Positions 23,145 through 28,393 of a stretch of DNA of 64,000 nucleotides are shown here, piece after piece. Within the stretch, counting starts at the first letter, position 1; each line of letters begins with the position of its first letter. The translations under genes and the position numbers were made by a program. The DNA comes from the human T2T-CHM13v2.0 reference genome, Homo sapiens. Where the stretch lies: NCBI RefSeq assembly GCF_009914755.1, contig NC_060929.1. One strand, given 5' to 3'. Under the pieces are notes generated by a model. It had not been told where the DNA came from and did not search any database. It worked only from the letters and a program-made list of their open reading frames with translations.

Positions 23145-25400
23145 TTTTCTGATCCCCAGTTTTTTAATCTAAAAATTGACATTTGAAATAATACACACCT
23201 CAAAGATTGTTGTGAGAATTAGAGAGTGCTTAGCAAAGAGAATTAGAGCACTTAGCAAAGAATCTGGCACAAGAAAGAAGCACTCAGTAAAGGTTAGCTA
23301 TTGATATTATCATTATGCAAATCTAAAGGGGCTTAGATCTTTTCTTCTTTATCTTCTCATTCTCCCTTTCTTTCCTTTTCTCTTTTCTGTTTTTCATAAA
23401 TAATAAAAAAAAAGCCTCACAGTTCATTCAGCAAGGTGGAAGTTTATTTAGCTCTCCACCAAAAGTCTGGATGTGAAGTAATCCAGGATGGGTGTGGAAG
23501 CTCTGAAACCCAGGCCCCTTCCCTATTAGGTGTGGCCCTCGTCCTCAGTATTCAAGATGGCAGCTAGAGCTCTAGGGATCATGTCTGCATTCCACATAGC
23601 AAGATGGAGGAGAGGAAAAGAAAACTCCGGACGGATGCTTCCTAAAGGTTGCTTACTCCCACACTGGCCTGGACTTAATCACCAGAAAGGCTAAAAATGT
23701 GACCAATATTCCAGGTAGTCATGTACCCAGAAAAATGTGATATTACAATGGAAAATTGAGAGGAAGAAGTATGGAGGAACAATTATTGTTCCCTGATGTA
23801 CCCAACCCCGGGGGTCTAACAGATTTGGGTCATTCCCCAGAAACCCATTCTCATCCAGCTTTTACGTGCTTATTTCTCAGGTAGGGAACACCTTCCCCAA
23901 AAAAGTTAGTTGCATAGTTTGCTTATCCTACTCAGCTTGGCTTACTTTCTAAATTCCTCTCATACCTTTTACCTCTCATCCACCAACTTCATTCATTTTC
24001 TAACTGTCCAATTTTAATAAGCAATACAATTATTTTATTATAGAAAAGTTAGAGAACACAGCTAAGCACTTAGAAAAAAAGCGTTTTTTCAATATTCAAA
24101 AATCTCACCACTTAGAGATAACCACTTCTAAAATATTGGCATATAGTCATCTAACATTTTCCCTAGATAAAAAACATACATATGTATTTATAATGAAAAT
24201 CTAGTCTACATAATTATTCTTAACCTCTTCTGTTACACTTAATGGTATATTATCAGTAACGCTCAATATTATTAATTATAGAAAAACATCAATTTTAATG
24301 ACTGCAAAGTTTTTCATTGTATGGGTATGGGTGTATAATAATTTATTCAACCAATTCCCTGTTTATTCCACAGCATTATGTTAAACCCCCTAGCACATAT
24401 ATCTTTGCTCATTTGTCCACCAGTTTCCTGGGGATGAGCTGTGTTCCTGTGGTTTTTTCACCCCTGGGGTCTCCTTACTTATCTGGGGACCAGCAGAAAA
24501 GGACACCTCCACCATTCCATCAGCAAAGTAATGTTGGGTCTTATCTCTACCACTAAGCTGCTCGGAATTCTTCTTTCAAATGATCATTGCGGATTCAGGA
24601 GATCCATGAAGACCTAAATTAATGCCTCTCTATACCCCACTGCATGAATAGCAAGATTATGAACAGCAAGACTGCTACAATGCGAGGTGATTACATAATC
24701 CCACTGCTTGGAAAAGCACAAAATAAAATACGACCTTAGGTGACTGAAGCACTTCCTCTTAGTCTGTTAGAACTTGCAGTTTACCCAGCAGACTTCGAGC
24801 AAGACTGGAGTGAGGCCATTTCTATGTGAAAAAAACAATTTCAATTAGTAAAAATGCATTTGACTGAAATAATTATTTAGACAACTGATTTGACAAACGA
24901 TTATGCTTGAGCTGATTTTTTTTAAAAAACTGACGATTGATCTCTGACTAATTGTTTCTTTGTCTCAGCTGAGCTTCCTAATGATCCAAATGCTCATTTT
25001 ATAAATGAATACAGTTTAAGAAAGATTAAGTAACTTAGCCATGATTACACAAAAGGAAAGAAGTAGAGCCAGAATTCAAAATCAGTATTCAGACCCAGAA
25101 AGAGTCACTGACTCCCATCTCATAGACGTAGAGTCAAGTTCACAGCCCTGTTCCTTGGGTAGTGATTAAGAAAAGGGGTTCCAGCATCAGGTAATCTGAG
25201 TTCATGTCCCATATCTGCCATTTCCCAGTTGTGTCATCTTATGCAAGTTAATAAACCACTCTGTGTCTCTGTCACCCTATCTTATAAATGGGGATGATGC
25301 GTGTCTATCTCCAAGGGCTGCCTAGATTAAATGAGATGATCCACATACACACTTAGCACATAGGAAGTGCTCGGTAATTAGTTATTAATGTTATGTAGGT

Positions 25401-26904
25401 GTCGTCTGAAAACCTTGGCCAAAAGGGTCATAGACATGGCGGTCATCAGGGTTCAGGTGTACATGTGAAGGTTTGTTACACAGGTAAACTCGTATCACGG
25501 GCATTTGTTGTGCAGGTTATTTCATCACCCAGCAATGAATGAGACTTCCTGTTGCTCCTCATTCTCCCCAGCATTTACCATTGTCAATGTCTCAGATTTT
25601 CACCCTGCTAGTAGATGGGAAAACTGACAACCATGCCTGCAAGTCTGATACATGCATCTGTAAATGTACATGGAACCAAAGAAGAGGAATCCAAAAAGCA
25701 GCTAGTGAAACCAGAGCAGCTCCCCGTATATACTGCACCACCGCTCCAGTCTAAATATGTTGAAGAGCAGCCTGGTCATTTATAAATGGGCTTTGCTTCC
25801 ATCTACACTGCAACTGGTCATTATACTGGCTGGTGCAAGGATGTTTATGTCTTTGTGAAAAATGGGATAATGGATACAGTACAATTTGGGAAAGATGCTT
25901 ATGTCTATCTGAAGAATCCTCCTCGAGATTTTCTTCCGAAAATGGGAGTTATTACGGTTTCAGGATTGGTGGGCTTGGTTTCAGCGAGAAAAGGTTTTAA
26001 GTTTAAGAAAATTACTTATCCTCTGGGACTGGCCACTTTATGAGCAACTGTTTGCTACCCAGTTCAGTCAGTAATAATTGCTAAGGTAACAGGGAAAAAG
26101 GTATATGCTACAAGCCAGCAAATTTTTGAAGCAGTTAAATCATTGTGGACAAAAAGCAGCAAAAAAAGAGTCACTCCCTAAACCTAAAGAAAAAAAATTA
26201 AGCTAGGATCCCCCGCCGAAATAGAAGTACCTGCAAAAACAACTCACATCTTGAAATGCTCAGTGCCCTTGCCAACAGAACTCAGCTCTGAAGCAAACAC
26301 CAAATCAGAATCCACCTCAGGTGCTACACAGTTTATGCCTGACCCCAAGTTCATGGATCACAGGTGGTCCCACCCAGAACATATAGACAAGTATAGCACT
26401 GGAACCTGAAGCAGACTGCATAGAGAGACTACATAGAAAACTACAAGATGTATGAAGTTGCAAATAATGATGAAAAAAATCATGTAATGGGTAACTGATA
26501 CATAGAGTATTATTTAAACCAAGTTTTTCCCTTACCTCTCCAAATGTGCAATTTGATAAATTGCATAAGTGGTTAACACACAAACTGTGAATGCAATGCA
26601 AACAATATTAAATGATTGATGAGGAGACTTAGGTAGAAGTATTAGCTTGAATTTAATGAGCTTTAGGGGCCCATAGTTAAAAAAAAAAAAAAAAAGACAT
26701 GAACTCCAGTGAGACTAAAATCTGAAAATGCATATATGTATGTATAAAGACATACATATTTATATGTATAATCATATATTTCTGCTCTAGCTTTCCCTAA
26801 TTAATGTCAGTTAAATTAGAATGGTGTGTAGAAAGATGTGTTTCCCTCTTTTTTTCCATTTCCTAGAGCTGGAATAAAATATCCATGTTTTATGGGAAAA
26901 AAAA
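25401..26904 (+). pseudogene. Processed pseudogene of APOOL (MIC27, MICOS subunit)
   Basis: Intronless translation MAVIR / MGKLTTMPASLIHASVNVHGTKEEESKKQLVKPEQLP...MGFASIYTATGHY...FMPDPKFMDH...YSTGT* resembles APOOL. ATG at 25436, premature stops at 25783-25785 and 26041-26043, frameshifts in A-runs near 26161-26200, native stop at 26407-26409, AATAAA at 26873-26878, A8 at 26897-26904. Candidate TSD aatgttatgtaggt (25387-25400) / agtattatgcaggt (26904-26917), 11 of 14 identical. Confidence 0.93.
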
Positions 26905-26912
26905 GTATTATG

Positions 26913-28393
<1,481 letters not shown>

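What the first reader, a model, noticed from the sequence alone, without database searches (positions are those of the whole stretch)
25451..25614. APOOL retrocopy appears to preserve two cryptic L1-derived exons: a fossil of an alternatively spliced mRNA
Seen: 164 foreign nt lie between ATG GCG GTC ATC AGG (MAVIR, 25436-25450) and ATG GGA AAA CTG (MGKL, from 25615). No APOOL base is lost or duplicated, and there is no poly-A or TSD. The insert splits into two 82-nt blocks, 25451-25532 and 25533-25614, both ending in AG. Knowledge (recalled consensus): block 1 resembles the antisense 3' end of an older L1PA, which continues ...catcacccag|gtatt, a donor site. Block 2 resembles antisense L1M ORF2-end sequence, preceded in consensus by ...cccaccag| (acceptor) and followed by ...tag|gtgtg (donor). 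I recall that APOOL exon 1 ends after 15 coding nt. Inference: these are not insertions into the pseudogene but exonised L1 pieces from APOOL intron 1, spliced in before retrotransposition. Inclusion gives an early stop (MAVIRVQVYM*), so the source was a poison-exon or uORF isoform present in the ancestral germline. Re-initiation at the MGKLTT Met would be possible.
Basis: partly seen in the sequence, partly recalled or inferred. Interest (0 to 1): 0.85.

Follow-up and report, generated by a model that had tools for sequence, protein, structure and literature searches.

The report
Pseudogene preserving two L1-derived APOOL exons
An old processed copy of the APOOL gene on chromosome 5 carries two extra 82-base exons made from an antisense L1 repeat in APOOL's first intron, so it records a non-productive splice form from tens of millions of years ago; this kind of record is already known.

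Summary
At window 25451-25614, 164 nt sit between the last base of APOOL exon 1 and the first base of exon 2, inside an otherwise perfectly spliced full-length retrocopy (about 25403-26904).

The two 82-nt blocks have their best genome-wide matches in intron 1 of the parent gene on contig 23. They lie in the same order and on the same strand, 399 nt apart. They are 5.7 kb downstream of exon 1 and 36 kb upstream of exon 2. Identity is 79/82 and 75/82, similar to the rest of the retrocopy.

In the parent, block 1 follows a poly-T tract and ...TAG. Block 2 follows ...CTAG and is followed by GTATAC. The one exception is the donor after block 1, which reads CT in this assembly. At that site 16 of 27 L1 paralogues read GT and 22 of 27 have G at +1.

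Both blocks are antisense L1. Block 1 is the 3'-UTR end next to the tail. Block 2 covers ORF2 codons of about 1117-1143. The two pieces are colinear, so they probably come from one element.

The isoform stops after 10 codons and has a second upstream ORF that overlaps the exon-2 Met, so it was most likely non-productive.

This is a clean new example of a known phenomenon and is of modest interest.

The parts
25391..25400 (+). Candidate 5' target-site duplication (TTATGTAGGT). Support is weak.
   Evidence: 9 of 10 identical to 26908-26917. 5.4% of 2000 random window segments scored as well, so this is only suggestive.
25403..25450 (+). Copy of APOOL exon 1 (33 nt of 5'UTR plus 15 coding nt, MAVIR). 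It lies outside the RefSeq pseudogene span, which starts at 25614.
   Evidence: 92% identity to C23:83432348-83432395; the parent continues with gtaagc.
25451..25532 (+). Cryptic exon A, 82 nt: the antisense 3'-terminal L1 sequence that lies next to the L1 tail.
   Evidence: 79 of 82 identical to C23:83438131-83438212; over the 83 alignment columns, the parent matches 80 and the 27 paralogues match 72-75; preceded in the parent by a T-rich tract and ...ttttag.
25533..25614 (+). Cryptic exon B, 82 nt: antisense to L1 ORF2 codons of about 1117-1143.
   Evidence: 75 of 82 identical to C23:83438614-83438695. The next best hit is 87% over 68 nt, or 78-80% over the full length; the parent flanks are cctactag| and |gtatac; the antisense translation matches LINE-1 ORF2p residues 1092-1154, E 7.7e-12.
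25615..26322 (+). APOOL exons 2-8, joined exactly at the parental junctions. The frame is broken by stops.
   Evidence: seven segments at 93-98% identity to C23 exons, each parental segment flanked by ag and gt; 22 differences in 475 ungapped nt of exons 2-6.
26323..26896 (+). APOOL exon 9 with the 3'UTR, ending at the parental cleavage site. AATAAA is at 26873-26878.
   Evidence: 87% and 80% identity to C23:83516055-83516510 and 83517159-83517347; both copies read ggaataaaatatccatgttttatggga. After that the retrocopy has A8 and the parent has cttgag.
26897..26904 (+). Remnant poly(A) tail, 8 A.
   Evidence: It is absent at the same point in the parent.
26908..26917 (+). Candidate 3' target-site duplication (TTATGCAGGT). 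Support is weak.

Best explanation
Window 25403-26904 is a full-length processed pseudogene of the X-linked gene APOOL. It was reverse-transcribed from an alternatively spliced mRNA. In that mRNA, two 82-nt cassette exons from an antisense L1 lying 5.7-6.3 kb into intron 1 were spliced between exon 1 and exon 2.

Exon A used the antisense L1 tail (a poly-T run) as its polypyrimidine tract and ...TTTTAG as its acceptor. Its donor was the site that most L1 paralogues still carry as CAG|GT. Exon B used ...CCTACTAG| as acceptor and TAG|GTATAC as donor.

The 164 nt shift the frame and stop the APOOL ORF after 10 codons, so the isoform was most likely a non-productive (NMD-type) by-product. It must have been present in germline or early embryonic cells when L1 machinery copied it, roughly 25-45 million years ago.

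Shown: the anatomy, the intronic source, the L1 origin and the stop codon. Inferred: that splicing joined the blocks, that the first donor was once GT, the age, and the NMD fate.
For: (1) Source. For each block the best non-self match lies in parental intron 1, on the same strand and in order: C23:83438130-83438212 at 96% and 83438612-83438695 at 91-92%. Exon 1 ends at 83432395 and exon 2 starts at 83474915.

(2) Specificity. Block 1 matches the parent at 80 of 83 alignment columns, against 72-75 of 83 for 27 other L1 copies. At six positions parent and retrocopy agree with each other against the paralogue majority. For block 2, the next best match is 87% over 68 nt.

(3) Boundaries. Homology stops exactly at ag| before both blocks and at |gt after block 2 and after exon 1. 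All eight canonical junctions in the same retrocopy are exact and have gt/ag in the parent, which serves as an internal control.

(4) Same age. The blocks have K2P 0.064 (10 of 164 differences) and exons 2-6 have K2P 0.048 (22 of 475).

(5) Donor A. Of 27 paralogues, 16 have GT after the homologous CAG and 22 have G at +1.

(6) The whole unit is a retrocopy. It runs from 33 nt upstream of the ATG to the parental poly(A) site and ends in an A8 tail.

(7) Antisense L1 pieces in long introns are a documented source of cryptic exons (PMC6108849, passages seen).
Against: The donor after block 1 reads CT in the parent of this assembly. The exact isoform therefore cannot be produced by canonical splicing from this haplotype, and an earlier GT rests on paralogues only.

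The block 1/block 2 joint shares 3 nt (AGC) between the two parental sites. A microhomology-mediated deletion is therefore not excluded, although overlaps of 2-6 nt also occur at the canonical junctions.

The target-site duplication is weak.

No transcript evidence and no other primate genome could be consulted. APOOL did not occur in the 3 held supplementary files of PMC6108849; its table of LINE-derived exons may not be among them or may be cut.
Confidence: 0.88

Rival explanations
1. The source mRNA had one long cryptic exon (C23:83438131-83438695, 565 nt). A later 399-nt deletion in the retrocopy, or a jump by the reverse transcriptase, removed its middle at a 3-nt microhomology.
For: The parent has CT, not GT, after block 1. 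AGC is shared at both breakpoints.
Against: The right breakpoint falls exactly after an AG preceded by a pyrimidine-rich stretch. The left breakpoint falls exactly at the site where 16 of 27 L1 paralogues have CAG|GT. The same few-nt overlaps are seen at all canonical junctions. From general knowledge, not tested here: internal exons above 500 nt are rare in human genes.
Confidence: 0.08
2. The 164 nt entered the pseudogene after its insertion, by L1 retrotransposition, gene conversion or a repair patch.
For: Both blocks are L1 sequence.
Against: There is no tail, no duplication and no loss of APOOL bases. The insert consists of two non-adjacent L1 segments. The best matches are the intron-1 copy of the parent gene rather than any other L1. 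The insertion point coincides exactly with the exon 1/2 junction.
Confidence: 0.01
3. Template switching by the L1 reverse transcriptase from APOOL mRNA to an unrelated L1-containing RNA and back produced a chimeric retrocopy.
For: Chimeric retrocopies are known (general knowledge, not tested here).
Against: This would need three switches, all landing on splice-site positions, and a donor RNA that happens to be APOOL intron 1.
Confidence: 0.01

Closest known systems
[quoted passage not shown]
   Same: A retrocopy keeps an exon arrangement that differs from the main transcript, so it documents an alternative isoform of the parent gene.
   Different: I could not read that paper (not held). I saw only its citation in the reference lists of PMC5470649 and PMC7290577, so its content is recalled. 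I do not know whether it lists this APOOL case. In the present case the extra exons are repeat-derived and one of their splice sites is no longer intact in the parent.
Cryptic exons from antisense L1 in long introns, repressed by MATR3/PTBP1 (Attig et al. 2018, PMC6108849)
   Same: The source is a deep-intronic antisense L1 in a long (42.5 kb) intron. The exons are short cassettes that break the reading frame.
   Different: That work detects such exons in present-day RNA. Here the evidence is a DNA copy of an old mRNA. APOOL did not occur in the 3 held supplementary files. Passages only were read.
Poison (NMD-targeting) cassette exons
   Same: Inclusion creates a stop codon after 10 codons, far upstream of eight further exon junctions.
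   Different: There is no evidence of regulation, conservation or NMD sensitivity. The broken donor in the parent argues against a maintained regulatory exon.

Membership tests
Processed pseudogene (L1-mediated retrocopy) | All parental introns are removed exactly at the exon junctions | tested here: met
   exons 1-9 are contiguous, and each parental segment is flanked by ag/gt.
Processed pseudogene (L1-mediated retrocopy) | Ends at the parental polyadenylation site with a poly(A) tail | tested here: met
   AATAAA at 26873-26878, identical sequence up to ...tatggga, then A8 in the retrocopy only.
Processed pseudogene (L1-mediated retrocopy) | Target-site duplications flank the copy | tested here: inconclusive
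   a 9 of 10 match next to both ends, but 5.4% of random segments score as well.
Processed pseudogene (L1-mediated retrocopy) | Disabled reading frame | tested here: met
   stops occur after 10 codons and further on. One search shows in-frame stops within the exon copies.
Exonised transposable element (antisense L1 cassette exon) | The exon sequence derives from a repeat lying in an intron of the gene | tested here: met
   the L1 lies in intron 1. Its antisense translation matches ORF2p residues 1092-1154 and 1221-1274.
Exonised transposable element (antisense L1 cassette exon) | Functional acceptor and donor at both ends of each exon | tested here: inconclusive
   three of the four sites are AG/GT. 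The donor of exon A is CT in this assembly, while 16 of 27 paralogues have GT. Splice-site strength was not scored.
Exonised transposable element (antisense L1 cassette exon) | Transcripts containing the exon are observed | not testable with these tools
   No transcript or junction database was available. The retrocopy itself is the only indirect record.
Poison exon / NMD isoform | Premature stop more than about 50 nt upstream of a downstream exon junction | tested here: met
   the stop is at 25466-25468; nine further junctions follow in the source mRNA.
Poison exon / NMD isoform | Isoform stabilised when NMD is blocked; regulated or conserved inclusion | not testable with these tools
   Needs RNA-seq and other genomes.

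The most novel reading that the evidence does not exclude
The chr5 retrocopy may be the only surviving record of an APOOL 5' isoform that the human gene can no longer make. The donor of the first L1-derived exon has since changed from GT to CT in the parent. The pair of loci would then date both the birth and the death of a two-exon L1-derived poison cassette, and would show that such a non-productive transcript was abundant enough in the ancestral germline to be retrocopied.
Probability: 0.45. Interest if true: 0.45.

Novelty: new member of a known kind. Interest (0 to 1): 0.35.

Why it matters
This is a tidy, fully resolved example of a retrocopy acting as a time-stamped record of an alternative, repeat-derived splice form.

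It extends the RefSeq pseudogene LOC100431175 by about 211 nt at its 5' end (25403-25613). It also marks two cryptic exons in APOOL intron 1, one of which still has intact AG and GT sites.

If primate comparison confirms that the first donor was lost after the retrocopy formed, the locus gives a dated case of gain and loss of L1-derived poison exons. It does not change how either process is understood.

Tried and rejected

(2) The Shemesh 2006 paper is not held.

(3) Literature searches found nothing on this locus, judging from listings only. 'APOOL' plus 'pseudogene' gave 16 papers, 10 listed. 'APOOL' plus 'cryptic exon' gave 2 papers. Passages of PMC2584115, PMC5408686 and PMC3192792 added nothing relevant.

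(4) I looked for a second APOOL retrocopy that might show the exon 1/2 junction without the blocks. One search found only the window itself and the seven parental exons (7 candidates). The contig-16 fragment starts in exon 8, so it says nothing about the 5' end.

(5) The target-site duplication test was only borderline.

(6) I tried to assign the two blocks to L1 subfamilies. No repeat library was available. Paralogue matching was ambiguous, and ORF2 colinearity favours a single element.

(7) Splice-site strength was not scored because no scoring matrix was available.

(8) I considered a recursive-splice-site reading: the exon 1-block 1 joint recreates AGG|GTTCAG. I set it aside because that reconstituted donor departs from the consensus at most positions. 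This was judged by eye and not tested.

Full report
**1. Observation**

The window reads ATG GCG GTC ATC AGG at 25436-25450. It then has 164 nt (25451-25614), followed by ATG GGA AAA CTG from 25615. Block 1 (25451-25532) ends in CAG and block 2 (25533-25614) ends in TAG. No A-run or flanking duplication borders the insert. Translation from 25436 gives MAVIRVQVYM followed by a stop.

**2. The surrounding unit**

A search of the window's own genome with 25380-26900 and a local BLAST against the fetched parental loci show that 25403-26897 copies a nine-exon gene on contig 23, + strand.
- Exon 1 ends at 83432395.
- Exons 2-8 lie at 83474915-83502862.
- Exon 9 with the 3'UTR reaches 83517347.

Every canonical junction is exact, and each parental segment is flanked by ag and gt. 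Parent and retrocopy share AATAAA and the following sequence up to ...tatggga. After that the retrocopy has eight A while the parent continues with unrelated sequence.

A possible target-site duplication (25391-25400 and 26908-26917, 9 of 10 identical) is only suggestive, because 5.4% of 2000 random segments score as well.

The unit is therefore a full-length processed pseudogene. The RefSeq span given by the hub starts at 25614, so it misses the first 211 nt or so. No other copy of exons 2-8 exists in this genome (7 candidates, all the window itself or the parental exons).

**3. Where the 164 nt come from**

With the whole insert as query, the two best non-self matches are on contig 23 (40 scored of 2105 candidates):
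- C23:83438130-83438212 (+, 96%, query 1-83)
- C23:83438612-83438695 (+, 92%, query 81-164)

All other listed hits cover block 1 only, at 86-91%. With block 2 alone as query, the contig-23 site is 91% over all 82 nt. The next best is 87% over 68 nt, and full-length matches are 78-80% (40 scored of 217).

Both sites lie between exon 1 (ends 83432395) and exon 2 (starts 83474915). They are on the same strand, in the same order as in the retrocopy, and 399 nt apart.

I aligned block 1 with 27 other L1 copies, namely the 7 non-parental loci plus the next 20 places of that list, fetched. The parent matches 80 of 83 columns and the others 72-75. At six positions parent and retrocopy agree with each other against the paralogue majority. 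Those 27 copies were chosen because they resemble the retrocopy block, which makes the comparison conservative.

Divergence of the blocks from the intron is 10 of 164 (K2P 0.064). Divergence of exons 2-6 is 22 of 475 (K2P 0.048). The blocks are therefore about as old as the rest of the retrocopy.

**4. Splice sites in the parent**

- Exon 1: ...ATCAGG|gtaagc.
- Block 1: preceded by a long T-rich tract and ...ctattttag|. It is followed by ctgttaag, which is CT rather than GT.
- Block 2: preceded by ...ttttgcattcctactag| and followed by |gtatacag.
- Exon 2: preceded by ...tatctttcttag|.

Three of the four new sites are canonical. At the fourth site the 27 paralogues read as follows:

| Dinucleotide after the homologous CAG | Paralogues |
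|---|---|
| GT | 16 |
| GA | 6 |
| CT | 2 |
| AA | 1 |
| AT | 1 |
| 1-nt gap at this site | 1 |

G is at +1 in 22 of 27. The simplest reading is that the intronic L1 once carried CAG|GT and the parent later changed G to C. That step is inferred. It needs other primate genomes, which were not available here.

**5. What the blocks are**

The antisense translation of the parental segment was read with X at stops and compared with solved structures.
- L023:2322-2573 matches LINE-1 ORF2p residues 1221-1274, which is the C-terminus (E 5e-18).
- L023:2572-2811, which contains block 2, matches ORF2p residues 1092-1154 (E 7.7e-12). By my arithmetic on that alignment, block 2 covers codons of about 1117-1143.
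- Block 1 lies between the ORF2 end and the T-rich tract. It is therefore the antisense 3'-UTR end beside the L1 tail, and the reversed tail supplies the polypyrimidine tract.

The two pieces are colinear in L1 coordinates, with about 110-130 nt missing between them. Without a repeat library I cannot settle this.

A separate antisense L1 fragment (ORF2p residues 564-745, E about 1e-61) lies just upstream of the T-tract.

**6. Mechanism and fate**

The best explanation is an mRNA spliced exon 1 - A - B - exon 2 ... exon 9, polyadenylated at the normal site, and copied by L1 machinery into an intron of SH3RF2 on chromosome 5.

The insert is 164 nt, so it is not a multiple of three. The APOOL ORF stops after 10 codons. 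A second ORF (MNETSCC..., 30 codons, in the frame shown) starts in block 2 and runs across the exon-2 ATG in another frame. Re-initiation at the MGKL Met therefore looks unlikely, and the isoform was probably a non-productive NMD substrate. This is inference.

I dated the event with a recalled primate neutral rate of about 1e-9 per site per year. The block divergence suggests about 30 million years. The exon divergence, if mostly on the pseudogene lineage, suggests up to about 45 million years. This is a rough inference.

**7. Rivals**

- A single 565-nt cryptic exon followed by a 399-nt deletion would explain the CT. It would need both breakpoints to land by chance on a paralogue-supported CAG|GT site and directly after an AG. 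The shared AGC at the joint is no larger than the 2-6-nt overlaps seen at the canonical junctions. I give this about 0.08.
- Later insertion into the pseudogene, or template switching, would need the intron-1 copy of the parent gene to be the donor and all joints to coincide with splice positions. I give each about 0.01.

**8. Comparison with what is known**

That processed pseudogenes preserve splice variants is an established idea: Shemesh et al. 2006. I saw only the citation. The paper is not held, so its content is recalled.

Antisense L1 in long introns is a documented, normally repressed source of cryptic exons that break reading frames, and testis is rich in such exons (PMC6108849, passages). 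APOOL did not occur in the 3 supplementary files held for that paper. Its table of LINE-derived exons may not be among them.

Searches for 'APOOL' with 'pseudogene' and with 'cryptic exon' listed nothing on this locus. I saw listings only.

**9. Verdict**

This is a new, clean member of a known kind.

Interest is modest at 0.35. It would rise somewhat if primate data show that the donor was lost after the retrocopy formed, which would make the retrocopy the only record of an extinct isoform.

Noticed in passing
window 26734-26771; parent L012:1900-2640 (C23:83516454-83517194): The parental 3'UTR holds about 700 nt of an AT-rich tandem repeat (units like tatacatatatgtataaatacgtaca). The retrocopy has only one or two units there. 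The array either expanded in the parent after the retrocopy formed or contracted in the copy.
   Followed up: partly
G000:C16:74735868-74736267 (-), loci L013 and L017: This is a second, 5'-truncated APOOL-like processed fragment on contig 16. It is 88% identical to window 26299-26488 (crossing the exon 8/9 junction) and 79% identical to 26694-26900. It does not reach the 5' end, so it says nothing about the cryptic exons.
   Followed up: partly
window 25403-25613: The RefSeq pseudogene LOC100431175 is annotated from 25614. The retrocopy actually begins about 211 nt earlier, with the exon 1 copy and the two L1-derived exons.
   Followed up: yes
window 26680-26697: An A17 run lies inside the retrocopy's 3'UTR where the parent has A9 (L012, about 1862-1870). 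It is a simple expansion and not the retrocopy's tail.
   Followed up: partly
L023:1503-2066 (C23:83437502-83438065), minus strand: A separate antisense L1 fragment with an open 188-codon stretch matching ORF2p residues 564-745 (the reverse-transcriptase region) lies immediately upstream of the T-tract that precedes block 1. It is not colinear with the L1 that supplies the blocks.
   Followed up: partly
window 25450-25456: The exon 1-block 1 joint recreates AGG|GTTCAG, which has the form of a recursive splice site. The reconstituted donor looks weak by eye, and this was not pursued.
   Followed up: no
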